Source: Eledone cirrhosa (lineage: Eukaryota). Taken from it: a stretch of DNA of 64,000 nt. The translations under genes and the position numbers were made by a program. The notes below the pieces were generated by a model. It saw only the letters and a program-made list of their open reading frames with translations. It ran no database searches and had not been told where the DNA came from. Where the stretch lies: contig OZ024744.1 of the NCBI GenBank assembly GCA_964016885.1, positions 118,420,001-118,484,000 of the forward strand, read 5' to 3'. Positions 36,669 through 64,000 of the stretch are shown here, one piece after another (position 1 is the stretch's first letter; each line of letters begins with the position of its first letter).

Positions 36669-38028
36669 AACAGATGCCCTCTTCTTGGTGAGACAAATGC
36701 AAGAGAGGTTCTTAGAGAAGAATAAGCCACTATACTTGGCCTTTGTTGACCTAGAGAAGGCCTTTGATAGGGTACCCCGATCTGTCATCTGGTGGTCCCT
36801 AAGGAAGCTGGGTGTTGAGGAATGGCTTGTAAGGACAGTGCAAACTTTGTACAGAGGTACTCTCAGTAAAGTCAGGGTAGGAATGGAGTTTAGTGAGGAA
36901 TTCCAGATACAAGTAGGAGTACATCAGGGTTCGGTCCTCAGCCCGCTCTTGTTCATTATAGTCCTCCAAGCCATAACAGAGGAGTTTAAGACTGGCTGTC
37001 CATGGGAACTTCTCTATGCTGACGATCTGGCTCTTATGGCAGAATCAGTAGAGGAGCTAGAGAATAAATTCCGGCTATGGAAACAGCAGTTGGAAGCAAG
37101 AGGACTGAGAGTAAATCTAGCTAAGACAAAAGTGTTGATGAGTAGAAAAGAGGACAAAACCCTGATTCCGTCAGGGAAATGGCCATGTTCGATATGCAGA
37201 AAAGGAACTGGCATAAATTCTATAAAATGCACACAATGTAGGTCCTGGGTACACAAGAGATGTAGCGGGATAGCAGGCAAACTAACAGGTAGGGAGAAAT
37301 ATGTATGCAGTAGATGTACAGGGAAATTAGACAGTAGAAGTCGCACTGATAGACACATTTTTCAAATGCGAGAGGGCGCTATAGAAGTGGTGGATAGCTT
37401 CCGGTACCTAGGAGATCAGATTAGCATGGGAGGAGGGTGTTCCGAGGCCATAGTATCTAGAATAAGGACGGGTTGGAAGAAGTTTAGGGAGCTGCTTCCT
37501 CTGTTGACGAAGAAGGGTTTCTCCCTGCGTACGAAAGGCCGGTTGTATGATGCCTGTGTGAGGAGCGCGATGCTGCATGGTAGTGAGACATGGGCAGCTA
37601 CCGCAGAAGATATGCGACGGCTGGAGAGAAATGAGGCAAGCATGCTCCGTTGGATGTGCAGTGTAAATGTGCGTGAACGACCCAGCATAAATGTGTTGAG
37701 AGAGAAACTGTCTGAGAGGGATAGAATGTAGTGTACGGGAGAGGAGACTGAGGTGGTATGGACATGTGATGCGCATGGAGGATGACCGATGGGTGAAGAA
37801 GTGCCAGGAAATGCCAGTTGAAGGAAGACGTAGTAGAGGTAGACCACGAAAAACATGGGCGGAGGTGGTGAGAACAGACCTCAGATCATTGAAGCTCACG
37901 GTGGAGATGACGAGGAACCGTGACGAGTGGAGAGATGCTGTGCTGAATAAGACCCGTCCCACCCTTGCAAGCAGGGAAAAGCGGACGTAAAATGATGATG
38001 ATGATGATGAATGATGATGATGATGATA
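36669..38028 (+). mobile_element. RTE-clade LINE, young 5'-truncated copy with PHD-like finger and (GAT)n tail
   Basis: ~350-aa open RT frame; highly similar to 24838-26140 in the opposite orientation; (ATG)n tail at 37992-38028. Confidence 0.95.
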
Positions 38029-38752: not shown

Positions 38753-39957
38753 TTCTAACCTTGCTGACTGTTCCTCTATACATGGGTTGTATAGCTCTTA
38801 CAAGCCATTCATACTCCTAGTTTGCTAAGAATGTAGATTTTATATGTGGCCGGTGCTCTGGTGCAATAAGTAGCAGCAAGTGCCCACAGAATACTAGCTC
38901 ATTCCATTGCACAGATGGTTCTATAGAAATAGTGGACACCTTCCGTTACCTGGGTGACAAAATCAGCAGTGGGGGAGGGTGCTCTGAAAGTACAGTAGCC
39001 AGAGTCAGAACGGGATGGAAAAAGTTCAGAGAGCTTATACCAGTATTGGCCGCTAAAGGGTTCTCCCTAAAAATGAAAGGCAGATTGTATGATGCTTATA
39101 TACAAACAGCAATGCTACATGGCAGTGAGACATGGGCCTTGTGTGCAGAGGATCTACGCAGACTGGAGAGGAACGAAGCTTGCATGCTCCGTTGGATGTG
39201 TAACAGTAATATATGTGAACGGCAAAGCATAAATGAACTAAGTGAGAAATTAGGAATAAGAGGGATCAGATGCTGTTTACTTGAGAGAAGACTACGTTGG
39301 TATGGTCATGTGATGCGCATGAAAGATGACAGCTGTATAAAATATTGCAGGGTGATCAAATTTGATGGAAGTTACGGAGTAGGCAGACCCAGAAAAACCT
39401 GGGATGATCTGATAAATTCCGACCTTACACACTTGCACCTCTCTAAGACAATGACACGGGATTGAGACCTTTGGCACTCTGCAGTAATACGGAAGATCCA
39501 CCTCCCCTACGTACAAAGTTAAACCTAGTCAGTAGTCACCTCTTAACCAAATATACACTCCGACCCACTACCCCTACTCCCTCTTCCCACTCCGACCCAC
39601 ACCACCTTTTTTCTGTAAAGTTATGTTGGTACCACAACAGCCAGTCCAAACTAAAGTGGTAGTGTAGTTGACATGACAAAAAGTACCCAGTACACACTGT
39701 AAAGTGGTCATGTAGTTGACATGACAAAAAGTACCCAGTACACACTGTAAAGTGGTCATGTAGGTGTCATGACAAAAAGTACCCAGTGCACACTGTAAAT
39801 GTGGTTGGTGTTAGGAAGGGCCTCCAGCCATAGTAAACTTGCCAGATAGTCCTATATGACTGAGATACAGTCACCCGATCCATCTTGCCTCAAGTGGGAG
39901 TCTCACTCATGCTAGCGTAGAAGATGGATGTTAAACAATGATGATGATTATGATGAT
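38752..39957 (+). mobile_element. RTE-clade LINE (family of 6531-8308) with a short inverted 5' segment and 48-bp repeats in the 3' UTR
   Basis: DTFRYLGDKISSGGGCSES..GRPRKTW; 38752-38822 matches 7989-8058 in antisense; (GAT)n tail at ~39938-39957. Confidence 0.9.
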
Positions 39958-45482: not shown

Positions 45483-46482
45483 AGGGAGGTGGATTGGTAG
45501 TACCGGTAGAGGGTCGGACGCCATGCTTTGCAACATAGAGTTACGGCCCTTTACGTTCTGAATTCAAATCCCGCCGAGGTTAACTTTGCCTTTCATCCTT
45601 ACGGGCTCGATAAAATAAAGTACCAGTAATGCACTGGGGTTGATTTAATCGACTTTCCCCTCCCCCAAAATTGCTGGCCTTGTGCCTATATAAGAAATCA
45701 TTATTATTTCTATTTTTATTATTATTATTAATTAGCAGCAATCGGCAGAGCGTCGGAGACCAATCTTTGTGGCATAGAGTTACGGCTCTTTATGTTCTGA
45801 TTTAAAATCCTGTTGCGGTTAGCTTTGCCTTTCATCCTTAGAGGGTCAATATAATAAAGTACCAGTAATACACTGGGTAGATTTAATCGACTTTCCCTTC
45901 CTGCAAAATTGTTGGCTTGTGCCAAAAGTAGAAACAATTATTATTAGTGTTATTAAATTTACCCCAGTACATTACTGGTACTTTATTTTATCAACCCCTT
46001 AAGGATGAAAGGTAAAGCTAACTTCAGCAGGATTTGAACTCAGAAAGTTGTGACTATATACCGCAAAGCATTTTGTTCGATGTTCTACCAATTAATGCCA
46101 ATCCACCACCTGACTGTGAATAAAATAATTGTTTCTACTTTAGGCACAAGGCCAGCTATTACCCAGTGTATTACTGATACTTTATTTTATCGACCCCGTA
46201 AGGATGAAAGGCAAAGTCAACCTCGGCGGGATTTGAACTCAGACCGTAAAGGGACGTAACTATGCTAGAAAGCATGGCGTCCAACCCTCTACCGATACTG
46301 CCAATAATTGTTTCTACTTTAGGCACAAGGCCAGCAATTACTCAGTGCATTACTGGTACTTTATTTTATTGACCCCGTAAGGATGAAAGGCAAAGTTAAC
46401 CTCGGCGCGATTTGAACTCAGACCGCAAAGGGACGTAACTATGCTGGAAAGCATGGCGTCCGACCCTCTACCGATACTGCCA
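45483..46482. mobile_element. Cluster of five tRNA-type SINEs (+45483-45705, +45730-45945, -45957-46110, -46125-46303, -46304-46482)
   Basis: Each has the B-box-like region and the ctttgcctttcatcct core. Confidence 0.85.
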
Positions 46483-47410
46483 CAATAATGATGATATTTT
46501 TAATACAGTGTTTTCGATTGTAGTATCAATTTCAACTCCTTGAAAGTCGTATCTATGTAACTGACAACTATCAATTTAACCTGAAATATAGTAAAATATT
46601 CGACAATTGTGTGTTGACATCTCGTTTATTTTTCTATCAACTATAAATAAAGTACGTCTGTCTAATTGTATTTAAGTGTACTTATGGTTTCATAGACACC
46701 TCGGCCTTGGTTTTCAAGGTATTTCTCACAACTCCTGGCACTTAAATCTTTCAACACACTACAGCTGGTTCACACACAAACACACACACACGTGTGTTTG
46801 TGTGTGTATATGTATGTATATGCGCATATGTGTATATGTGCATATGTATATGTATGTATGAATGTGGATCATCATTTCTGTCAAATTTTCCATGTTTGCA
46901 TGGGTTAGACAGGTCATCCATACATAGAGGCAACTCTGGCCATGTGTCACACCTTGCTCTGGTGACGTCTGCAAATTTGGCTGAGTATTTTACAACTGGA
47001 TGCCCTTCCTAACACCAAGTACGTTTACAGTGTGGAACTGGACGGCTCCGTTCTGAGGAGGGACAGGCCAGTTGGCTGCGCCAAACCAATCACACAACAT
47101 TACCACAGTTTGGGCCTAGTACTGGTTGGCACTGCTATGAGGGGTGACAGGTGCAGAACCACAGTTTGGAAGCCTGGTCTTGGATGGTACCACTTTGCAA
47201 AAGGACCAGTGATATCACTATGAGGAGGGACAGGCCAATTGGCTGCACTGAACCCTTCTCACAGCGACACCCCAGTTTCAGAGCTGGGCACTCTCTATGC
47301 GACAGACAATTCTCAATGTGAAACCGAAGCCTGGGATTGGATGGCGCCACTATGAGGAGGGACGGGCCAGCCATGCCTAACCCATCTCACAGTGGAACAA
47401 TAGCCTAGAT

Positions 47411-47632
47411 CAGTGCTTCTCAAACTATCTGATGTGGCAGACCGGCATTTTTTTCCAATGTGCCACGTACCGCTAATATTTTGTAGTAATATTAATTTAT
47501 ACCAGAAACGATATATATAATGAATATAATAAAAGTTGATTCCTTAGCATGGCCTGGACACTGGCCGCGTACCGGTAGCTGATGGCTTGCATACCGGCAC
47601 CGGTCCGCGGACCACCACTTTGAGTAGCCCAA
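47411..47632. mobile_element. hAT-type MITE
   Basis: TIR cagtgcttctcaaa..tttgagtagcccaa (degenerate); 8-bp TSD-like gcctagat / tactagat. Confidence 0.65.
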
Positions 47633-48533
47633 TACTAGATGGTGCCACTCTGAGGAAAGATAGGTGCACAGTATAGGAGGCTGGACGACAGAAGGAACAC
47701 AGTTTGAGGGACCCGGCACTGGAGAAGGGACAGGCCGAACCTCTCCTACAGTGGTACACCAGTTTCAGAGCTGGGCCCTCTCCACACAACAAACCATTCT
47801 CAATATGAAACCACATTTTGTGAGCCTGGGACTGTGTGGCACACTTATGAAGAGGGACATGCCAGTAGGTCACGCTGAACCCTACAGCAGCACCCCAGTT
47901 TCGGAACAAGCCCTTCACAAGATCACATTTTACTTCTGGATCCCCACATTGGATGACCGTGATGAAACTCTCGTGGACCTGTCATCGACCTTTTTTGCAG
48001 TGTGATGCTGGGCAGTGCCATTTTGATCCAAGTCTAATATTGAGTTGTCAGAGCCGATCTTTTGTTGAACGTTGTAGTGCCAGAGGACTCAGTCCTGTGT
48101 CATCCCCATTGTTGAGTTCCGTCCTTATTATTTCCTCCCACGTCTTCCTGAATCTCCATCTCTTGGTGCCTCCTGCAACTTTTAAAGCCCTACAACTCTT
48201 TAAGCAGCTAACATTCTTCATGCGGCACATCACGTGACCATACCAGTGTCGTCTTCTCTGTCGCACACAGCATTTGATCCTTCTTATACCCAGTTTCACT
48301 CTTAACATTCTGTTGCTCACATACACATCCATCTCACCATATATACTTTGTTTCTTTTCAGCCTCCGTATGTCCTTGGCATGCAGAGCCCATCTTTCACT
48401 ACAAGGTAGCATTACTGAGTGCACACAGGATAAGTGAGGGACCATTTGTAGTTAACAGCAGCAGCTTCTTGAACTTTTTCCAACCTGTTCTTACTCTTGT
48501 GACTGTGCTGATTTGGTCCCACAAATAGCAGAA

Positions 48534-50727
48534 GCCATTTCCCTGGTATCAGAGCTCTGTGTCCTCTACTGAGTAGGGCCATTTCCCTGGTATCAGAGCT
48601 CTGTGTCCTCTACTGAGTAGGGCCATTTCCCTGGTATCAGAGCTCTGTGTCCTCTACTGAGTAGGGCCATTTCCCTGGTAGCAGAGCTCTGTGTCCTCTA
48701 CTGAGTAGGGCCATTTCCCTGGTATCAGAGCCCTGTGTCTTCTACTGAGTAGGGTCATTTCCCTGGTAGCAGAGCTCTGTGTCCTCTACTGAGTAGGGCC
48801 ATTTCCCTGGTATCAGAGCTCTGTGTCCTCTACTGAGTAGGGTCATTTCCCTGGTATCAGAGCTCTGTGTCTTCTACTGAGTAGGGTCATTTCCCTGGTA
48901 GCAGAGCTCTGTGTCCTCTACTGAGTAGGGTCATTTCCCTGGTATCAGAGCTCTGTGTCTTCTACTGAGTAGGGTCATTTCCCTGGTAGCAGAGCTCTGT
49001 GTCCTCTACTGAGTAGGGCCATTTCCCTGGTATCAGAGCTCTGTGTCCTCTACTGAGTAGGGTCATTTCCCTGGTATCAGAGCTCTGTGTCTTCTACTGA
49101 GTAGGGTCATTTCCCTGGTAGCAGAGCTCTGTGTCCTCTACTGAGTAGGGCCATTTCCCTGGTATCAGAGCTCTGTGTCCTCTACTGAGTAGGGTCATTT
49201 CCCTGGTATCAGAGCTCTGTGTCCTCTACTGAGTAGGGTCATTTCCCTGGTATCAGAGCTCTGTGTCTTCTACTGAGTAGGGTCATTTCCCTGGTAGCAG
49301 AGCTCTGTGTCCTCTACTGAGTAGGGCCATTTCCCTGGTATCAGAGCTCTGTGTCCTCTACTGAGTAGGGTCATTTCCCTGGTATCAGAGCTCTGTGTCT
49401 TCTACTGAGTAGGGTCATTTCCCTGGTAGCAGAGCTCTGTGTCCTCTACTGAGTAGGGTCATTTCCCTGGTATCAGAGCTCTGTGTCTTCTACTGAGTAG
49501 GGTCATTTCCCTGGTAGCAGAGCTCTGTGTCCTCTACTGAGTAGGGCCATTTCCCTGGTATCAGAGCTCTGTGTCCTCTACTGAGTAGGGTCATTTCCCT
49601 GGTATCAGAGCTCTGTGTCTTCTACTGAGTAGGGTCATTTCCCTGGTAGCAGAGCTCTGTGTCCTCTACTGAGTAGGGCCATTTCCCTGGTATCAGAGCT
49701 CTGTGTCCTCTACTGAGTAGGGTCATTTCCCTGGTATCAGAGCTCTGTGTCTTCTACTGAGTAGGGTCATTTCCCTGGTAGCAGAGCTCTGTGTCCTCTA
49801 CTGAGTAGGGCCATTTCCCTGGTAGCAGAGCTCTGTGCCCTCTACTGAGTAGGGCCATTTCCCTGGTAGCAGAGCTCTGTGTCCTCTACTGAGTAGGGCC
49901 ATTTCCCTGGTATCAGAGCTCTGTGTCCTCTACTGAGTAGGGTCATTTCCCTGGTATCAGAGCTCTGTGTCCTCTACTGAGTAGGGTCATTTCCCTGGTA
50001 GCAGAGCTCTGTGTCCTCTACTGAGTAGGGTCATTTCCCTGGTATCAGAGCTCTGTGTCTTCTACTGAGTAGGGTCATTTCCCTGGTATCAGAGCTCTGT
50101 GTCTTCTACTGAGTAGGGTCATTTCCCTGGTAGCAGAGCTCTGTGTCTTCTACTGAGTAGGGCCATTTCCCTGGTATCAGAGCTCTGTGTCCTCTACTGA
50201 GTAGGGCCATTTCCCTGGTAGCAGAGCTCTGTGTCTTCTACTGAGTAGGGTCATTTCCCTGGTATCAGAGCTTTGTGTCCTCTACTGAGTAGGGCCATTT
50301 CCCTGGTATCAGAGCTCTGTGTCTTCTACTGAGTAGGGTCATTTCCCTGGTAGCAGAGCTCTGTGTCTTCTACTGAGTAGGGTCATTTCCCTGGTATCAG
50401 AGCTCTGTGTCCTCTACTGAGTAGGGTCATTTCCCTGGTAGCAGAGCTCTGTGTCCTCTACTGAGTAGGGCCATTTCCCTGGTATCAGAGCTCTGTGCCC
50501 TCTACTGAGTAGGGCCATTTCCCTGGTATCAGAGCTCTGTGCCCTCTACTGAGTAGGGTCATTTCCCTGGTAGCAGAGCTCTGTGTCCTCTACTGAGTAG
50601 GGTCATTTCCCTGCTAGCAGAGCTCTGTGTCCTCTACTGAGTAGGGTCATTTCCCTGGTATCAGAGCTCTGTGCCCTCTACTGAGTAGGGTCATTTCCCT
50701 GGTAGCAGAGCTCTGTGCCCTCTACTG
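48534..50727. repeat. 44-bp satellite, ~50 copies
   Basis: Unit gccatttccctggtatcagagctctgtgtcctctactgagtagg; three main variable positions. Confidence 0.97.
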
Positions 50728-51194
50728 CTCACAAGGGTTTTGGTCTTGGACAGGATGACTTTTGACCTTTTGTTTCCAAGTTGTGCCTCCATCTCTGAAT
50801 TTGTTTCTCTAACTCTGCCATAGACTTGGCTATGAAGGTAAGGTCATCGGCGTATAGTAATTCCCATGGGTAACCTCTGCTGGCATCCGGCTGTAGAAAC
50901 TAAGCCCAAATCAGTTCTGTATGAGCAAGATATGGTCACCTGATCTATCTTGGGTGAGTGATGCTGCCAATAAAAACCCACACACCTGTTGGTTTTCACT
51001 TCAATTTATTATAAATTTCTGGTTGGTGAGTTCAATAACCGGATGGTTGTTTATATATTGTCAAAGTTCTTTTGTCACATTCTGTGACCTCCTCAGTGAC
51101 TGGTTTATTTTGTCTCTCCTTTGTTCTGTACTATACAATCTTGTTTTTTGTGTTGTATTATATATATATATATATAAAATATATATATATACAA

Positions 51195-51378
51195 ATAATT
51201 GTTTCTACTTTTGGCACAAGGCCAGCAATTATCCCAGTGTATTACTGGTACTTGACCCCGTAACGATGAAAGGTAAAGTTAACCTTGGCGGGATTTGAAC
51301 TCAGACCATAAAGGACCATAATTCTTTGCTGCAAAGCATGGTGTCAGACCCTCTACAGATACTGCCAATCCACTGCCC
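51195..51378 (-). mobile_element. tRNA-type SINE
   Basis: Homologous to 19364-19552. Confidence 0.8.
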
Positions 51379-52000: not shown

Positions 52001-55000
52001 TTACGACCACTTTACAGTGCGTACTGGGTACTTTTTGTTGTGACACCTACATGACCACTTTAAAATGTGTACTGGGTACTGTTTGTTGTGACACCTACAA
52101 GACCACTTTACAATGTGGACTGCGTAATTTTTATTGTGACACCTACATGACCACTCAACAGTATGTACTGGGTACTTTTTGTTGTGATACCTACATGACC
52201 ACTTTACAGTGTGTACTGGGTACTTTTTCTTGTGACAACAACATGAGCACTTTGCAGTGTGTAGTGGGTACTTTTTGCTGTGACACCAACATGACCACTC
52301 TACAGTGTGTACTGGGTAGTTTTGTGGTGATACCTACATGACCACTTTACAGTGTGTACTGGGTACTTTTTGCATGACACCTACAAGACCACTTTACAGT
52401 GTGTACTGGGTACTTATTGTTGTGACACCTACATGAATACTTTACAGTGTGTACTGGGTACTTGTTGTTGTGACACCTACATGACCACTCTACAGAGTGT
52501 ACTGGGTAGTTTTGTGATGATACCTACATGACCACTTTACAGTGTATACTGGGTACTTTTGGTTGTGACACCCACATGACCACTTTACAGTGTGTACTGG
52601 GTAGTTTTGTGGTGATACCTCCAGGACCACTTTACAGTGTGTACTGGGTACTTTTTGTTGTGACACCCACATGACCACTTTACAGTGTGTACTGGGTAGT
52701 TTTGTGGTGATACCTCCAGGACCACTTTACAGTGTGTACTGGGTACTTTTTGTTCTGTCAACTACATGACCACTTTACAGTGTGCACTGGGTAATTTTTG
52801 TTGTGAAACCTACATGACTACTTTACAGTGTATGCTGGGTACGTTTGTTGTGACACCTACATGACCACTTTACAGTGAGTACTGGGTACTTTTTGTTGTG
52901 ACACCTACATAATCACTTTACAGTGTGGACTGGGTACTTTTTGTTGTGACACCTACATGACCACTTTACAGTGTGTCTTCGGTACATTTTGTAGTGACAC
53001 AAACATGACCACTTTACAGTGTGTACTGGGTTCTTTTTGTTGTGAGACCTACATGAGCACTTTACAGTGTATGCTTGGGTATGTTTTGTTGTAAAACCTA
53101 CATGACCACTTTACAGTGTGTACTGGGTAATTTTTGTTCTGATACCTACATGACCACTTTACAGTGTGTACTGGGTACTTTTTGTTGTGACACCTACATG
53201 ACCACTTTACAGTGTGTACTGGGTACTTTTTGTTGTGAGACTTACATGACCACTTTACAGTGTGTACTGGGTACTTTTTGTTGTGAAACCTACATGACAA
53301 CCTTACAGTGTGTACTGGGTATGTTTTGTTGTGAAACCTACATGACCACTTTACAGTGTATGCTGGGCACGTTTGTTGTGACAGCTACATGACCACTTTG
53401 CATTCTGTAGTGGGTACTTTTTGTTGTGACACCTACATGACCACTTTACGGTGTGTACTGGGTAATTTTTTTCATGACACCTACATGACCACTTTACAGT
53501 GTGTACTGGGTACTTCTTGTTGTGATACCTACATGACCACTTTACAGTGTGGACTGGGTACTTTTTGTTGTGACACCTACATGACCACTTTACAGTGTGT
53601 ACTGGGTACTTTTTGTTCTGATACCTACGTGACCACTTTGCAGTGTGTACTGGGTACTTTTTGTTGTGGCACCTACATGACCACTCTACAGTGTGTACTG
53701 GGAGTTGTGTGGTGATACATAGATGACCACATTACAGTGTGTACTAGGTACTTTTTGTTGTGACACCTACAAGACCACTTTACAGTGTGTACTGGATACT
53801 TTTTGTGGTGACACCTATATGACCACTTTACAGTGCGTACTGGGTACATGTTGTTGTGTCACCTATATGACCACTTTACAGTGTGTACTGGGTACTTTTT
53901 GTTGTGAAACCTACATGACCACTTTACAGTGTGTACTGGGTACCTTTTATTGTGAGACCTACATCACCACTCTACTGTGTGTACTGGGTACTATTTGTTG
54001 TGAGATTTACATCACCACTTTACAGTGTGTACTGGGTACTTTTTGTCATGACACCTACATGACCACTTTACAGTGTGTACTGCGTACTATTTGTTGTGAC
54101 ACCTACATCACCACTTTACAGTGTGTACTGGGTACTTTTTGTTGTGTCACATATATGATCACTTTACAGTGTGTACTGGGTACTTTTTGTTGTAACACCT
54201 ACATGAGCACTTTACAGTGTGTACTGGGTACTATTTGTTGTGACACCTACATGACTACTTTACAGTGTATACTGGGTACTTTTTGTCATGACACCAACAT
54301 GACGAATTTACAGTGTATGCTGGGTACGTTTCTTGAGACACCTACATGACCACTTTACAGTATGAACTGGGTACCTTTTGTTGTGACACCTGTATGACCA
54401 CTTTACAGTGTGTATTGGGTATATTTTATCGTGACACCTACATGACCACTTTACAGTGTGGAATGTGTACTTTTTGTTGTGTCACCTACATGACCACTTT
54501 ACAGTGAATACTGGGTACTTGTTGTTGTGTCACCTATATGACTACTTTACAGTGTGTACTGGGTACTATTTGTTGTGACACCTACATAACTACTTTAGAG
54601 TGTGTACTCGGTATTTTTGTTGTGACACAAACATAACCACATTACAGTGTGTACTGGGTACGTTTTGTTGTGAGACCTACATGACCACATTACAGTGTGA
54701 ACTGGGTATGTTTTGTTGTGAAACCTACTTGACCACTTTTCAGTGTGTACTGGGTATGATTGTTGTGACACCTACATGACTACTTTAGAGTTTGTACTAG
54801 GTTGGTTTTGTCATGACACCTACATGACCACTTTACAGTGCGTACTGGGTACTTGTTGTTGTGTCACCTATGTGACCACTTTAGAGTGTGTACTGGGTAC
54901 TATTTGTTGTGACACCTACATGACTACTTTACATTTGTACTCGATACTTTTTGTTGTGAAACAAACATGACCACTTTAGAGTGTGCACTGGGTACTTTTT

Positions 55001-58000
55001 GTTATGAACCCTACATGACCACTTTACAGTGAGGACTGGGTGTTTTTTGTTGTAACACCTACATGACCTTCTTACAGTGTGTACTGTGTACTTTTTGTGA
55101 TGACACCTACGAGACAACTTTACAGTGTATGCTGGGTACGTTTGTTGTTACACGTACATGACCACTTTACAGTGTGTACTGGGTACTTTTGGTTGTGACA
55201 GCTACATGACCACTTTATAGTGTGTACTGGGTACCTTTTGTTGTGACCCCTACATGACCACTTTACAGTGTGGACAGGATACCCTTTGTTGTGGCACCTA
55301 CATGACCACTTTACAGTGTGTACTGGGTACTTTTTGTTGTGAGACTTACATGACCACTTTACAGTGTGTACTGGGTACTTTTTGTTGTGAAACCTACATG
55401 ACAACCTTACAGTGTGTACTGGGTATGTTTTGTTGTGAAACCTACATGACCACTTTACAGTGTATGCTGGGCACGTTTGTTGTGACAGCTACATGACCAC
55501 TTTGCAGTGTGTAGTGGGTACTTTTTGTTGTGACACCTACATGACCACTTTACGGTGTGTACTGGGTACTTTTTGTTGTGACACCTACATGACCACTTTA
55601 CAGTGTGTCTTCGGTACATTTTGTAGTGACACAAACATGACCACTTTACAGTGTGTACTGGGTTCTTTTTGTTGTGACACCTACATGACCACTCTACAGT
55701 GTGAACTGGGTACTTTTTTTGTGATACCTACATGACCTCTTTACAGTGTGTAATGGGTACATTTCATGACACCTACATGACCACTTTAGTCTATATTGGG
55801 TACTTTTTGTGGTAAAACCTACATGACTACTTTACTGGGTATGTTTTGTTGTGACACCTACATGACCACTTTTCAGTGTATGCTGGGTACTTTGTGTTGT
55901 GTCACCTACATGACCACTTTACAGTGTGTACTGGATACTTTTTGTTGTGACACCTACATGACCACTCTACAGTGTGTACTGGGTACTTTTTATTGTGACA
56001 CCTACATGACGAACTTTACAGTGTGTACTAGGTTCTTTTTGTCATGACACCTACATGACCAATTTACAGTGTGTACTCGGTAATTTTGTGGTGACACCTA
56101 CATGACCACTTTACATTTGTACTCGGTACTTTTTGTTGTGACACAAACATGACCACTTTACAGTGTGTACTCTGGTGCTTTTTGTTGTGACACCTACATG
56201 ACCACTTTACAGTGTGTACTAGGTACTTTTTGTTGTGAAACCTACCTGACCACTTTACAGTGTATTGGGTACTTTTTGTGATGACACCTACAAGGCAACT
56301 TTACAGTGTATGCTGGGTACATTTGTTGTGACACCTACATCACCACTTTACAGTGTGTACTGAGTACTTTTGGTTGTGACAGCTACATGACCACTTTACA
56401 GTGTGTACTGGGTACCTTTTGTTGTGATCCCTACATGACCACTTTACAGTGTGGACAGGGTACCCTTTGTTGTGAAACCTACGTGACCACTTTACAGTGT
56501 GTACTGTGTCCTTTTTGTTGTGACACCTACATGACCACTTTACAGTGTGTACTGGGTACATTTCGTCATGACACCTCCATGACCACTTTAGTCTATACTG
56601 GATACTTTTTGTTCTGTCACCTACATGACCACTTTAAAGTGTGTACTGGGTATCTTTTGCTGTGACACCTACATGACTTTCTTACATTGTGGACTGGGTA
56701 CTTTTTGTTCTGACACCTACATGACCACTTTACAGTGTGTACTGGGTACTTTTTGTTGTGACACCTATATGACCATTTTACAGTGTGTACTGGGTACTTT
56801 TTGCTGTGTCCCCTACATGACCACTTTGCAGTGTTTACAGGGTATGTTTTGTTGTGACACCTACATGACCACTTTACAGTGTGTACTGGGTACTTTTTGT
56901 TGTGACCCCTACATGACCACTTTGCAATGTTGACAGTGTTCTTTTTGTTGTGATACCTAGATGACCACTTTACAGTGTGTACTGTGTCCTTTTTGTTCTG
57001 ACATCTACATCTGGGTACTTTTTGTTGTGACACCTACATGACCACTTTACAGTGTGTACTGGGTACCTTTTGTTGTGATCCCTACATGACCACTTTACAG
57101 TGTGGACAGGGTACCCTTTGTTGTGAAACCTACGTGACCACTTTACAGTGTGTACTGTGTCCTTTTTGTTGTGACACCTACATGACCACTTTACAGTGTG
57201 TACTGGGTACATTTCGTCATGACACCTCCATGACCACTTTAGTCTATACTGGATACTTTTTGTTCTGTCACCTACATGACCACTTTAAAGTGTGTACTGG
57301 GTATCTTTTGCTGTGACACCTACATGACTTTCTTACATTGTGGACTGGGTACTTTTTCTTCTGACACCTACATGACCACTTTACAGTGTGTACTGGGTAC
57401 TTTTTGTTGTGACACCTATATGACCATTTTACAGTGTGTACTGGGTACTTTTTGCTGTGTCCCCTACATGACCACTTTGCAGTGTTTACAGGGTATGTTT
57501 TGTTGTGACACCTACATGACCACTTTACAGTGTGTACTGGGTACTTTTTGTTGTGACCCCTACATGACCACTTTGCAATGTTGACAGTGTTCTTTTTGTT
57601 GTGATACCTAGATGACCACTTTACAGTGTGTACTGTGTCCTTTTTGTTCTGACATCTACATCTGGGTACTTTTTGTTGTGACACCTACATGACCACTTTA
57701 CAGTGTGTACTGGGTACCTTTTGTTGTGATCCCTACATGACCACTTTACAGTGTGGACAGGGTACCCTTTGTTGTGAAACCTACGTGACCACTTTACAGT
57801 GTGTACTGTGTCCTTTTTGTTGTGACACCTACATGACCACTTTACAGTGTGTACTGGGTACATTTCGTCATGACACCTCCATGACCACTTTAGTCTATAC
57901 TGGATACTTTTTGTTCTGTCACCTACATGACCACTTTAAAGTGTGTACTGGGTATCTTTTGCTGTGACACCTACATGACTTTCTTACATTGTGGACTGGG

Positions 58001-61000
58001 TACTTTTTGTTCTGACACCTACATGACCACTTTACAGTGTGTACTGGGTACTTTTTGTTGTGACACCTATATGACCATTTTACAGTGTGTACTGGGTACT
58101 TTTTGCTGTGTCCCCTACATGACCACTTTGCAGTGTTTACAGGGTATGTTTTGTTGTGACACCTACATGACCACTTTACAGTGTGTACTGGGTACTTTTT
58201 GTTGTGACCCCTACATGACCACTTTGCAATGTTGACAGTGTTCTTTTTGTTGTGATACCTAGATGACCACTTTACAGTGTGTACTGTGTCCTTTTTGTTC
58301 TGACATCTACATCTGGGTACTTTTTGTTGTGACACCTACATGACCACTTTACAGTGTGTACTGGGTACCTTTTGTTGTGATCCCTACATGACCACTTTAC
58401 AGTGTGGACGGGGTACCCTTTGTTGTGAAACCTACGTGACCACTTTACAGTGTGTACTGTGTCCTTTTTGTTGTGACACCTACATGACCACTTTACAGTG
58501 TGTACTGGGTACATTTCGTCATGACACCTCCATGACCACTTTAGTCTATACTGGATACTTTTTGTTCTGTCACCTACATGACCACTTTAAAGTGTGTACT
58601 GGGTATCTTTTGCTGTGACACCTACATGACTTTCTTACATTGTGGACTGGGTACTTTTTGTTCTGACACCTACATGACCACTTTACAGTGTGTACTGGGT
58701 ACTTTTTGTTGTGACACCTATATGACCATTTTACAGTGTGTACTGGGTACTTTTTGCTGTGTCCCCTACATGACCACTTTGCAGTGTTTACAGGGTATGT
58801 TTTGTTGTGACACCTACATGACCACTTTACAGTGTGTACTGGGTACTTTTTGTTGTGACCCCTACATGACCACTTTGCAATGTTGACAGTGTTCTTTTTG
58901 TTGTGATACCTAGATGACCACTTTACAGTGTGTATTGTGTCCTTTTTGTTCTGACATCTACATCTGGGTACTTTTTGTTGTGACACCTACATGACCACTT
59001 TACAGTGTGTACTGTGTACCTTTTATTGTGACACCTACATGACCACTTCACATTGTGTAATGGGTACTTTTTATTGTGACACCTAAATGACCACTTTACA
59101 TTGTGTACTTGTGAAAGCTATATGACCACTTTACAGTGTATGCTAGGTACGTTTGTTGTGGCACCTACATGACCACTTTACAGTGTGAACTGTGTACATT
59201 TTGTTGTGAAACCTGCATGACCACTTTACAGTGTGTACTGTGTACATTTTGTCATGACACCTACATGATCACTTTAGTCTATTCTGGGTACTTTTTGTTG
59301 TGACGCCCAGATGACCACTTTACAGTGTGGGCTGAGTGTTTTTTGTTGTGACACCTATATGACCACTTTACAGTGTGTACTGGGTACTTTTTGCTGTGTC
59401 ACCTACATGACCACTTTGCAGTTTGTACTGGGTAGGTATGTTTTGTTGTGACACCTACATGACCACTTTACAGTGTGTACTGAGTGTGTTTTGTTGTGAC
59501 ACCTATATGATGACTTTACAGTGGATACTAAGTACTTTTTGTTGTGACACCTACATGATGACTTTACAGTGGATACTGGGTTCTTTTTGTCATGACACCT
59601 ACTTGACTACTTTACAGTGTGTACTGGGTACTTTTTGTTGTGACACCTACATGACCACTTTACAGTGTGTACTGGGTACTTTTTGTTGTGAGACTTACAT
59701 GACCACTTTACAGTGTGTACTGGGTACTTTTTGTTGTGAAACCTACATGACAACCTTACAGTGTGTACTGGGTATGTTTTGTTGTGAAACCTACATGACC
59801 ACTTTACAGTGTATGCTGGGCACGTTTGTTGTGACAGCTACATGACCACTTTGCAGTGTGTAGTGGGTACTTTTTGTTGTGACACCTACATGACCACTTT
59901 ACGGTGTGTACTGGGTAATTTTTTTCATGACACCTACATGACCACTTTACAGTGTGTACTGGGTACTTCTTGTTGTGATACCTACATGACCACTTTACAG
60001 TGTGGACTGGGTACTTTTTGTTGTGACACCTACATGACCACTTTACAGTGTGTACTGGGTACTTTTTGTTCTGATACCTACGTGACCACTTTGCAGTGTG
60101 TACTGGGTACTTTTTGTTGTGGCACCTACATGACCACTCTACAGTGTGTACTGGGAGTTTTGTGGTGATACATAGATGACCACATTACAGTGTGTACTAG
60201 GTACTTTTTGTTGTGACACCTACAAGACCACTTTACAGTGTGTACTGGATACTTTTTGTGGTGACACCTATATGACCACTTTACAGTGCGTACTGGGTAC
60301 ATGTTGTTGTGTCACCTATATGACCACTTTACAGTGTGTACTGGGTACCTTTTATTGTGAGACCTACATCACCACTCTACTGTGTGTACTGGGTACTATT
60401 TGTTGTGAGATTTACATCACCACTTTACAGTGTGTACTGGGTACTTTTTGTCATGACACCTACATGACCACTTTACAGTGTGTACTGCGTACTATTTGTT
60501 GTGACACCTACATCACCACTTTACAGTGTGTACTGGGTACTTTTTGTTGTGTCACATATATGATCACTTTACAGTGTGTACTGGGTACTTTTTGTTGTAA
60601 CACCTACATGAGCACTTTACAGTGTGTACTGGGTACTATTTGTTGTGACACCTACATGACTACTTTACAGTGTATACTGGGTACTTTTTGTCATGACACC
60701 AACATGACGAATTTACAGTGTATGCTGGGTACGTTTGTTGAGACACCTACATGACCACTTTACAGTATGAACTGGGTACCTTTTGTTGTGACACCTGTAT
60801 GACCACTTTACAGTGTGTATTGGGTATATTTTATCGTGACACCTACATGACCACTTTACAGTGTGGACTGTGTACTTTTTGTTGTGTCACCTACATGACC
60901 ACTTTACAGTGAATACTGGGTACTTGTTGTTGTGTCACCTATATGACTACTTTACAGTGTGTACTGGGTACTATTTGTTGTGACACCTACATAACTACTT

Positions 61001-64000
61001 TAGAGTGTGTACTCGGTATTTTTGTTGTGACACAAACATAACCACATTACAGTGTGTACTGGGTACGTTTTGTTGTGAGACCTACATGACCACATTACAG
61101 TGTGAACTGGGTATGTTTTGTTGTGAAACCTACTTGACCACTTTTCAGTGTGTACTGGGTATGATTGTTGTGACACCTACATGACTACTTTAGAGTTTGT
61201 ACTAGGTTGGTTTTGTCATGACACCTACATGACCACTTTACAGTGTGTACTGGGTACTTGTTGTTGTGACCCCTACCTGACCACTTTGCAATGTTGACAG
61301 TGTTCTTTTTGTTGTGATACCTAGATGACCACTTTACAGTGTGTACTGTGTCCTTTTTGTTCTGACATCTACATCTGGGTACTTTTTGTTGTGACACCTA
61401 CATGACCACTTTACAGTGTGTACTGGGTACCTTTTGTTGTGATCCCTACATGACCACTTTACAGTGTGGACAGGGTACCCTTTGTTGTGAAACCTATGTG
61501 ACCACTTTACAGTATGTACTGTGTCCTTTTTGTTGTGACACCTACATGACCACTTTACAGTGTGTACTGGGTACATTTCGTCATGACACCTCCATGACCA
61601 CTTTAGTCTATACTGGATACTTTTTGTTCTGTCACCTACATGACCACTTTAAAGTGTGTACTGGGTATCTTTTGCTGTGACACCTACATGACTTTCTTAC
61701 ATTGTGGACTGGGTACTTTTTGTTCTGACACCTACATGACCACTTTACAGTGTGTACTGGGTACTTTTTGTTGTGACACCTATATGACCATTTTACAGTG
61801 TGTACTGGGTACTTTTTGCTGTGTCCCCTACATGACCACTTTGCAGTGTTTACAGGGTATGTTTTGTTGTGACACCTACATGACCACTTTACAGTGTGTA
61901 CTGGGTACTTTTTGTTGTGACCCCTACATGACCACTTTGCAATGTTGACAGTGTTCTTTTTGTTGTGATACCTAGATGACCACTTTACAGTGTGTACTGT
62001 GTCCTTTTTGTTCTGACATCTACATCTGGGTACTTTTTGTTGTGACACCTACATGACCACTTTACAGTGTGTACTGTGTACCTTTTATTGTGACACCTAC
62101 ATGACCACTTCACATTGTGTAATGGGTACTTTTTATTGTGACACCTAAATGACCACTTTACATTGTGTACTTGTGAAAGCTATATGACCACTTTACAGTG
62201 TATGCTAGGTACGTTTGTTGTGGCACCTACATGACCACTTTACAGTGTGTACTGTGTACATTTTGTCATGACACCTACATGATCACTTTAGTCTATTCTG
62301 GGTACTTTTTGTTGTGACACCCAGATGACCACTTTACAGTGTGGGCTGAGTGTTTTTTGTTGTGACACCTATATGACCACTTTACAGTGTGTACTGGGTA
62401 CTTTTTGCTGTGTCACCTACATGACCACTTTGCAGTATGTACTGGGTAGGTATGTTTTGTTGTGACACCTACATGACCACTTTACAGTGTGTACTGAGTG
62501 TGTTTTGTTGTGACACCTATATGATGACTTTACAGTGGATACTAAGTACTTTTTGTTGTGACACCTACATGATGACTTTACAGTGGATACTGGGTTCTTT
62601 TTGTCATGACACCTACTTGACTACTTTACAGTGTGTACTGGGTACTTTTTGTGTGTCAACTGCATGACCATTTTACAGTGTGTACTATGTATTTTTTGTT
62701 GTGACACCTACATTACCACTTTACAGTGTGTACTGGGTATGTTTTTTTATGACACCTACATGACCACTTTATAGTGTGTACTGGGTACTTTTTGTTGTGA
62801 CACCTACACTACCACTTTACAGTGTGTACTGGGTATGTTTTTTTATGACACCTACATGACCACTTTACAGTGTGTACTGGGTAGTTTTTGTTGTGACACC
62901 AACATGACCACTTTACAGTGTGGACTGGGTATGTTTTGTTCTGACACTAATATGACCACTTTACAGCGTGGAATGAGTACACGTTGCTGTAACCCCTACA
63001 GTGACCACTTTACAGTGTGTACTGGGTACTTTTTGTCATGACACCTACATGACCACTTTACAGTGTGTACTGGGTACTATTTGTTGTGACACCTACATCA
63101 CCACTTTACAGTGTGTACTGGGTACTTTTTGTTGTGTCACATATATTATCACTTTACAGTGTGTACTGGGTACTTTTTGTTGTAACACCTACATGAGCAC
63201 TTTACAGTGTGTACTGGGTACTATTTGTTGTGACACCTACATGACTACTTTACAGTGTATACTGGGTACTTTTTGTCATGACACCAACATGACGAATTTA
63301 CAGTGTATGCTGGGTACGTTTGTTGAGACACCTACATGACCACTTTACAGTATGAACTGGGTACCTTTTGTTGTGACACCTGTATGACCACTTTACAGTG
63401 TGTATTGGGTATATTTTATCGTGACACCTACATGACCACTTTACAGTGTGGACTGTGTACTTTTTGTTGTGTCACCTACATGACCACTTTACAGTGAATA
63501 CTGGGTACTTGTTGTTGTGTCACCTATATGACTACTTTACAGTGTGTACTGGGTACTATTTGTTGTGACACCTACATAACTACTTTAGAGTGTGTACTCG
63601 GTATTTTTGTTGTGACACAAACATAACCACATTACAGTGTGTACTGGGTACGTTTTGTTGTGAGACCTACATGACCACATTACAGTGTGAACTGGGTATG
63701 TTTTGTTGTGAAACCTACTTGACCACTTTTCAGTGTGTACTGGGTATGATTGTTGTGACACCTACATGACTACTTTAGAGTTTGTACTAGGTTGGTTTTG
63801 TCATGACACCTACATGACCACTTTACAGTGCGTACTGGGTACTTGTTGTTGTGTCACCTATGTGACCACTTTAGAGTGTGTACTGGGTACTATTTGTTGT
63901 GACACCTACATGACTACTTTACATTTGTACTCGATACTTTTTGTTGTGAAACAAACATGACCACTTTAGAGTGTGCACTGGGTACTTTTTGTTATGAACC
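52001..64000. repeat. 48-bp satellite, >12 kb (runs off the window), with higher-order repeats
   Basis: Unit gtgacacctacatgaccactttacagtgtgtactgggtactttttgtt; 16-aa repeating ORFs; 651-bp periodicity at 56617/57268/57919/58570. Confidence 0.98.

What the first reader, a model, noticed from the sequence alone, without database searches (positions are those of the whole stretch)
48534..50727. 44-bp satellite born from RT coding sequence, replacing the PHD-like finger
Seen: the unit's reverse complement encodes SRGHRALIPGKWP, homologous to SRKEDKTLIPSGKWP (37141) and CRKENRALVPSGKWP (7681). The array is continuous with PWELLYADDL..KTKTLVS on one side and resumes near VRVRTGWKKF on the other, so the finger region is missing. 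Three variant units cycle as an incipient ABC trimer (132 bp) over ~48800-49800. This is a second, independent LINE-to-satellite event only 1.3 kb from the 48-bp array.
Basis: partly seen in the sequence, partly recalled or inferred. Interest (0 to 1): 0.72.

Follow-up and report, generated by a model that had tools for sequence, protein, structure and literature searches.

The report
Minisatellite grown inside a dead LINE
A 44-letter piece of the protein-coding region of a dead jumping gene is repeated 50 times at this one place, most likely after an ordinary local duplication between two short matching words; this is a clear but ordinary example of a known way tandem repeats are born.

Summary
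The array is real: 48536-50727, 49.8 copies of 44 bp, units about 96% alike. Both flanks and the unit align in order to the same LINE paralogs, so this is one insertion. The unit copies a 47-bp stretch between the RT and PHD domains, less 3 bp. It is out of frame, has stops, and is found at this locus only. In paralogs the template starts with CAGTA and is followed by C(A/G)GTA, which points to microhomology-mediated duplication and then expansion (inferred). The PHD finger was lost by a deletion of about 212 bp, one of at least seven deletions in this decayed copy. The unit keeps bases from inside the deleted stretch, so duplication came first or in the same event. The 'ABC trimer' is only partial; the strongest period is 12 units. 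The 48-bp neighbour is a genome-wide 3'UTR-related family. A 1-Mb sample gave a 34-kb array from the same kind of ORF, and this scan noted similar arrays on other DNA of this genome. Verdict: a new member of a known kind (TE-derived minisatellite), low interest.

The parts
48536..50727 (-). 44-bp tandem array, 49.8 copies; unit in LINE sense begins CAGTAG; not coding (44 is not a multiple of 3, and all three LINE-sense frames carry stops within three units)
50728..50876 (-). Upstream flank of the host LINE: end of the RT domain (PWELLYADDL ... KTKTLVS), with a small frameshift near 50765
48527..48543 (-). Deletion junction: the last partial unit (ending GAAATGG) is joined to the DSFCYL-equivalent; about 212 bp including the whole PHD finger are lost; imperfect homology ATGGC-CCTGCT / ATAGCTTCTGCT; junction occurs once in the genome
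47905..48535 (-). Downstream flank: C-terminal ORF remnant and start of the 3'UTR of the same LINE, with further deletions of about 24, 3, 23, 11, 8-10 and 14 bp; 8% from the paralog majority, mostly G>A and C>T
46866..47904 (-). Rest of the host 3'UTR, ending in a short ATG-repeat tail; limits approximate
   Evidence: sequence read directly; paralog matches reach about 47730
50877..51150 (.). Unrelated high-copy repeat that bounds the 5' end of the LINE remnant; no RT sequence continues beyond it up to 52010
52005..63997 (-). Neighbouring 48-bp array (about 15.4 kb in all, runs beyond the window); genome-wide family whose unit matches a short repeat in the 3'UTR of related LINE copies; separate origin

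Best explanation
The array is a single-locus, non-coding minisatellite made of a 44-bp piece of a dead LINE's coding region, likely born by a local tandem duplication between two short matching words and then likely expanded to 50 copies by slippage or unequal exchange. Shown: the template is the 47-bp RT-PHD linker. All units share changes that most paralogs lack (a 3-bp deletion, A>C, G>A), so the array grew from one already decayed unit or was fully homogenised afterwards. The unit's last 7 bases lie inside the deleted stretch, so duplication came before or together with the loss of the finger. Inferred: the duplication used CAGTA at the unit start and C(A/G)GTA 47 bases on; a separate deletion of about 212 bp at an imperfect homology then removed the finger, starting inside the last unit; nested block duplications made the variant mosaic. 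No function is expected.
For: Flanks are colinear in the same paralogs, for example L012, L013, L016, L019-L022, L024, L025, L029, L030. CAGTA starts the template in 14 of 19 paralogs. The word after the template is CAGTA in 4 of 19 and CGGTA, TGGTA or CGATA in most others, the pattern expected from CpG decay (the CpG reading is inference). The unit junction (34 exact hits) and the deletion junction (1 hit) occur only here; a DNA search found only this array and one single LINE copy. The host is 6-8% from the paralog majority with at least seven deletions, whereas the array has 3 singleton changes in about 2.2 kb, so the expansion is much younger than the insertion. The units that match the template at all four variable sites include the three next to the deletion junction. 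One paralog (L024) lost about 150 bp of the finger region without an array, and a 34-kb array of a 30-bp unit lies in a related ORF with no deletion beside it. Deletion and expansion therefore each occur alone in this family. The mechanism is in print: PMC13167724 (abstract, section 10) and PMC3389668 (passages).
Against: The precursor of this copy cannot be seen, so the 5-bp microhomology is inferred; most paralogs offer only 4 of 5 letters. The perfect match at the deletion junction is only 2 bp (GC), with about 9 of 12 imperfect. The deletion breakpoint falls inside the repeat unit, which a single coupled event would also explain. The 48-bp neighbour's host also has a large deletion starting just after RT. 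No second individual covered the locus, so length polymorphism is untested.
Confidence: 0.8

Rival explanations
1. One repair event made both changes. A break in the finger region was mended by end-joining with templated synthesis that slipped back at CAGTA, wrote the first tandem copies and joined to the distal end at ATGGC/ATAGC; later slippage lengthened the array. (Polymerase-theta-type repair is recalled, not taken from a call.)
For: The deletion starts inside the unit and the template-like units sit beside the junction. The copy has many small deletions. The 48-bp neighbour also abuts a large deletion.
Against: A deletion that starts inside an array is expected once the array is long. 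The 30-bp array on C4 has no deletion at either edge. Paralog L024 lost most of the finger region with no array.
Confidence: 0.13
2. The repeat was born elsewhere, or in an active LINE subfamily that carried it, and was brought here by retrotransposition or gene conversion.
For: The 48-bp family appears to have spread with LINE 3'UTRs.
Against: No other locus has the unit junction (covering the variant in 34 of the 49 junctions), the undeleted 47-bp junction (0 hits) or the deletion junction. A 44-bp insert would break the frame of an active element.
Confidence: 0.03
3. The array is an assembly artefact, or its length is wrongly assembled.
For: The only read-derived holders are probably the assembly's own sample, and no contig spans the array.
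Against: Units carry an ordered mosaic of variants. Read-derived contigs of the unit have a word depth of 89-105 against 7.8 for the unique flank in run X1, so the unit is multi-copy in the reads. The tool warns that such depths are not copy numbers.
Confidence: 0.02
4. The unit expanded because it folds into hairpins (palindromes CAGAGCTCTG and CTACTCAGTAG), or the array has a function as RNA or peptide.
For: There are two 5-bp-arm inverted repeats per unit, one of them made by the junction. The z-score is -2.3 against dinucleotide shuffles of a trimer.
Against: With fair controls the folding is unremarkable: 11% of 202 other 44-bp LINE windows repeated three times, 17% of 114 GC-matched ones and 10% of 200 shuffled-unit trimers fold as well. 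The 30-bp C4 unit folds worse than 86% of its controls. The LINE-sense frames have stops.
Confidence: 0.02

Closest known systems
TE-derived minisatellites of the human genome (Ahmed and Liang 2012, PMC3389668, passages; Alu minisatellites of Jurka and Gentles as cited there)
   Same: Single-locus tandem array with a 10-100 bp unit copied from part of a retrotransposon and expanded in place; short flanking direct repeats and a truncated last unit are the two initiation signs named there. The paper reports 7,276 such repeats, 23% of human mini/satellites.
   Different: Non-mammalian host, RTE-like LINE coding region, 50 copies where most human cases have two, and an adjoining deletion of about 212 bp.
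Microhomology-mediated tandem duplication (Wei et al. 2026, PMC13167724, abstract and section 10; Haber and Louis model as cited there)
   Same: A single-copy segment flanked by a short repeat duplicates and then expands.
   Different: Here the microhomology is inferred from paralogs, not from a one-copy allele, and the right arm has since been deleted.
SINE-derived satellites of squamates (Vassetzky et al. 2023, PMC10702118, abstract and Discussion)
   Same: Arrays still attached to the parent retroelement, loci of up to 1,000 units, alternating di- and trimeric patterns, most primary duplications staying single instances.
   Different: Parent is a LINE ORF rather than a SINE; this unit has not spread to other loci.
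Satellites related to LINE ORF2: chicken HinfI/CR1, hamster PROsat/L1, seal Pvc 20/L1 (as listed in Zattera and Bruschi 2022, PMC9659126, section 2.2 and table passage; original papers not read)
   Same: Tandem repeat with similarity to LINE ORF2.
   Different: In those cases, as summarised in the review, the LINE piece is part of or similar to a region of the repeat; here the whole unit is a short ORF piece with both parental flanks still in place.

Membership tests
TE-derived minisatellite | Head-to-tail array with a unit of 10-100 bp | tested here: met
   44 bp x 49.8
TE-derived minisatellite | Unit homologous to part of a transposable element and lying at that place in it | tested here: met
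   Unit and both flanks colinear with paralogs; shuffle control
TE-derived minisatellite | Copy-number variation among individuals (VNTR) | not testable with these tools
   Holders are one sample; the three RAD-seq runs laid had no depth on the array or its junctions
Microhomology-mediated tandem duplication | Microhomology arms flanking the single-copy segment | tested here: inconclusive
   CAGTA at the start in 14 of 19 paralogs and after the template in 4 of 19, with 4 of 5 letters in most others; the precursor allele is not available
Satellite DNA family (dispersed, high copy) | Many loci or very long arrays | tested here: not met
   One locus of 2.2 kb
Higher-order repeat array | A fixed multi-unit period repeated regularly along the array | tested here: not met
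   Whole-array lags 3, 5 and 8 each p 0.02-0.04, uncorrected, among 12 lags tested; one 10-unit block repeated at lag 12; no period in the right-hand 20 units
RTE-clade LINE (host element) | Single ORF with AP endonuclease and RT | tested here: met
   A relative of the window's 37-kb copy has one 1,024-aa frame with Exo_endo_phos, RVT_1 and PHD; the host itself belongs to a more distant subfamily
RTE-clade LINE (host element) | 3' end in short tandem repeats | tested here: met
   ATG repeats at the 3' ends; that this is typical of RTE is recalled
RTE-clade LINE (host element) | RT groups with named RTE elements in a tree | not tested
   No reference RTE sequences were fetched; the label rests on architecture and recalled C-terminal motifs. 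Octopus RTE-2_OV (PMC9115989, passages) has a C2H2 finger and 1,109 aa and was not compared.

The most novel reading that the evidence does not exclude
This genome turns LINE coding sequence into tandem arrays often enough to give a dated series, from a 2-copy duplication through this 50-copy array to a 34-kb array, each with its one-copy ancestor readable from paralogs. In this case the array and the loss of the PHD finger came from a single break-repair event that wrote the first repeats. The step from one copy to a satellite, normally invisible, could then be tested directly and genome-wide.
Probability: 0.15. Interest if true: 0.5.

Novelty: new member of a known kind. Interest (0 to 1): 0.22.

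Why it matters
On its own it matters little: it is a neutral-looking minisatellite in a dead retrotransposon, and TE-derived tandem repeats, including ORF2-related ones, are in print. Its value is as a clean worked example, because paralogs give the ancestral sequence and fix part of the order of events. With the 34-kb array found by sampling, it suggests that this genome suits a census of how often, where and at which microhomologies LINE sequence becomes tandem repeat.

Tried and rejected
Flanks from different insertions: rejected. Chance peptide likeness: rejected. Dispersed family, or an independent duplication at the same site: none found. Regular trimer higher-order repeat: not supported. 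Hairpin-driven expansion: not beyond controls. RNA-editing (A>G) marks in the host copy, a lead from earlier notes: not seen, 4 A>G among 56 differences. Continuation of RT upstream of 50876: no significant tblastn hit. LINE match for the 61-bp neighbour: none in my small library. Polymorphism: RAD-seq runs X4, X5 and X6 gave only paralog reads. The X1 and X2 contigs that cross the deletion junction with no difference reach only to 48563, under the tool's 31-letter standard for bridging. No RNA holder listed. ESM Atlas: unnamed RT-PHD clusters, no clade name. Paper searches listed no report of LINE-derived arrays in cephalopods and none of a PHD after RT in ORF2. I saw only the listings for the papers I did not open, the library lacks most subscription journals and Repbase, and no supplements were read, so this does not show absence from print.

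Full report
Observation. Tandem Repeats Finder reports an array at 48536-50727 with period 44, 49.8 copies and 95% matches. All 50 anchored units are 44 bp apart; four sites segregate and three changes are singletons, and the mean pairwise difference is 1.67 of 44. As DNA the unit scores 44-49 against each of three paralogs, with a maximum of 27 in 1,000 shuffles each. Because 44 is not a multiple of three, all three LINE-sense frames meet stops within three units, so the array does not code.

One insertion. A search of the genome with the upstream flank gave 87 matches, of which the 19 best outside the window were fetched. In 11 of these (L012, L013, L016, L019-L022, L024, L025, L029, L030) long stretches of both flanks match in order and orientation; most of the others match the downstream flank only in short pieces or are truncated or rearranged. 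The host is a 5'-truncated copy from about 50876 down to about 46866, bounded upstream by an unrelated high-copy repeat. It differs from the paralog majority at 11 of 172 and 45 of 563 positions, mostly G>A and C>T, and has at least seven deletions. It is an old, dead copy. A full-length relative has a single 1,024-aa frame with endonuclease, RVT_1 (541-743) and PHD (757-800); the in-window copy also has a PHD above the Pfam cut-off. The unit corresponds to about aa 742-757, the linker between RT and PHD. I call the family RTE-like from this architecture and from recalled motifs; no tree was built. That the host is an octopus-like animal is an inference from the repeat content and from earlier notes.

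Birth of the unit. In paralogs the template is 47 bp. It starts with CAGTA in 14 of 19 copies and is followed by CAGTA in 4 of 19 and by CGGTA, TGGTA or CGATA in most of the rest. This fits an ancestral CG decaying in different ways, one of which gives a perfect 5-bp direct repeat (inference). All units share a 3-bp deletion and two substitutions that most paralogs lack, so the array grew from one already mutated unit or was fully homogenised. With 3 singleton changes in 2.2 kb against 6-8% for the host, the expansion is far younger than the insertion.

Loss of the finger. The last partial unit ends GAAATGG and continues into the DSFCYL-equivalent. The missing stretch is 177-213 bp in 11 paralogs, 208-213 in 8 of them. 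The breakpoints share an imperfect homology with only 2 perfectly matching letters. The unit's last 7 bases lie inside the deleted stretch, so the duplication came before or with the deletion, never after. The junction occurs once in the genome. Two observations favour separate events: paralog L024 lost about 150 bp of this region without an array, and the C4 array described below has no deletion beside it. One observation cuts the other way: the host of the 48-bp neighbour also jumps from the end of RT straight into its repeats.

Single locus. A DNA search with three units found only this array and one single LINE copy (the tool calls such counts lower bounds). The exact junction pattern gave 34 hits, all here; it covers one of the two variants at that site. 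A degenerate pattern for a duplication of the undeleted 47-bp template gave none.

Internal order. Coded by the three commonest variable sites, the array reads bbefabcacabcabdcabcacabcabcaeebdaccgbhdfgdabbaada. Over the whole array lags 3, 5 and 8 are each mildly favoured (p 0.02-0.04, uncorrected, 12 lags tested), and the longest exact repeat is a block of 10 units at lag 12. In the central 25 units, chosen after looking, 10 of 22 pairs are identical at lag 3 and 10 of 13 at lag 12; in the right-hand 20 units, 2 of 17 and 0 of 8. This is a mosaic of nested block duplications with a local trimer, not a regular higher-order repeat.

Neighbour and base rate. The 48-bp unit matches a 3-copy repeat in the 3'UTR of the LINE copy at 39652-39805 and has 22,223 exact 30-mer matches across the genome. 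It is a dispersed family, likely grown from a repeat that the element already carried, a different route. Its array here is about 15.4 kb, and a 61-kb array of a 61-bp unit with no match in my LINE library follows about 8 kb later. I sampled 100 evenly spaced 10-kb stretches on 10 contigs. Thirty hold a complex array of 4 or more copies and 21 one of 10 or more, about 10.5% of the bases; one of the 21 looks like a zinc-finger gene array (recalled motif). Of 41 distinct arrays, 6 match my small LINE library: five of the 48-bp family and one from the ORF. That one is a 30-bp in-frame unit (IPLLSAKGFS) running about 34 kb on C4 with colinear LINE flanks on both sides; it is nearly single-locus too (789 forward hits, all those listed in this array, and 2 reverse). 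Long arrays are over-sampled by this design, so it gives no density, but it shows that ORF-derived arrays are not rare here. By my rough count (6 array edges per Mb), a 48-bp array within 1.3 kb of a given spot would arise about 1 time in 100 under even spacing, so the region is richer in arrays than average. Arrays cluster elsewhere too (five in stretch L160).

Reads. Three runs of one sample hold the stretch, probably the assembly's own; three RAD-seq runs of the same species label do not cover the array or its junctions. Unit contigs have a word depth of 89-105 against 7.8 for the flank in X1, so the unit is multi-copy in reads. Contigs cross the deletion junction without a difference but fall short of the tool's bridging standard. 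Polymorphism is untested.

Comparison with what is known. TE-derived minisatellites make up at least 23% of human mini/satellites, and flanking direct repeats and truncated last units are the recognised initiation signs (PMC3389668, passages). Microhomology-mediated duplication followed by expansion is documented across life (PMC13167724, abstract and section 10). Satellites related to LINE ORF2 are listed for chicken, hamster and seal, and the review concludes that any part of an element can serve (PMC9659126, passages and section 2.2). SINE-derived arrays of squamates show attachment to the parent, di- and trimer patterns and mostly single instances (PMC10702118, abstract and Discussion). 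Earlier notes of this scan describe LINE-born arrays on other DNA of this genome; these are unchecked AI notes and are not counted as support.

Verdict. The best explanation is ordinary local duplication and expansion in a dead LINE, with a separate deletion of the finger (0.8); a single coupled repair event is the main rival (0.13). It is a new member of a known kind, interest 0.22.

Noticed in passing
L105:7579 to L166:about 1760 (G000:C4:64,007,579 to about 64,041,760): An array of about 34 kb of a 30-bp in-frame unit (IPLLSAKGFS) from a related LINE ORF, with colinear flanks on both sides and no deletion; nearly single-locus. A far larger case of the same process.
   Followed up: partly
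L165 (G000:C1:364,300,369): A short LINE fragment among AT repeats with two copies of the same 30-bp unit and the same junction; either an independent two-copy duplication or a piece related to the C4 array.
   Followed up: partly
window 52005-63997 and L042:1-3530: The 48-bp array (about 15.4 kb) ends in a roughly 110-bp LINE piece from the PWELL region to NLAK, joined directly to the 3'UTR-type repeats: about 1 kb is missing, with a breakpoint within a few codons of the 44-bp unit's start. The array also shows a 651-bp higher period at 56840-59000.
   Followed up: partly
L043:1694 to L049:2504 (G000:C28:118,495,694-118,556,504): A 61-kb array of a 61-bp unit about 8 kb beyond the 48-bp array; no match in my LINE library; shorter arrays of the same unit in L059 and L160.
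   Followed up: partly
L178:1094-4168; window 36712-37728: This LINE family carries a Pfam PHD finger directly after RT in a single EN-RT ORF; many near-identical copies with 1,024-aa open frames suggest a young family. One paper search listed no description of this architecture.
   Followed up: partly
window 47411-47632: An insert of about 220 bp in the host's 3'UTR with decayed terminal inverted repeats and a 6-of-8 target duplication; looks like a hAT-type MITE (label recalled).
   Followed up: no
window 46124-46482: Two tandem copies of a 179-bp very high-copy repeat, the same family as at 51200-51370, probably a SINE.
   Followed up: no
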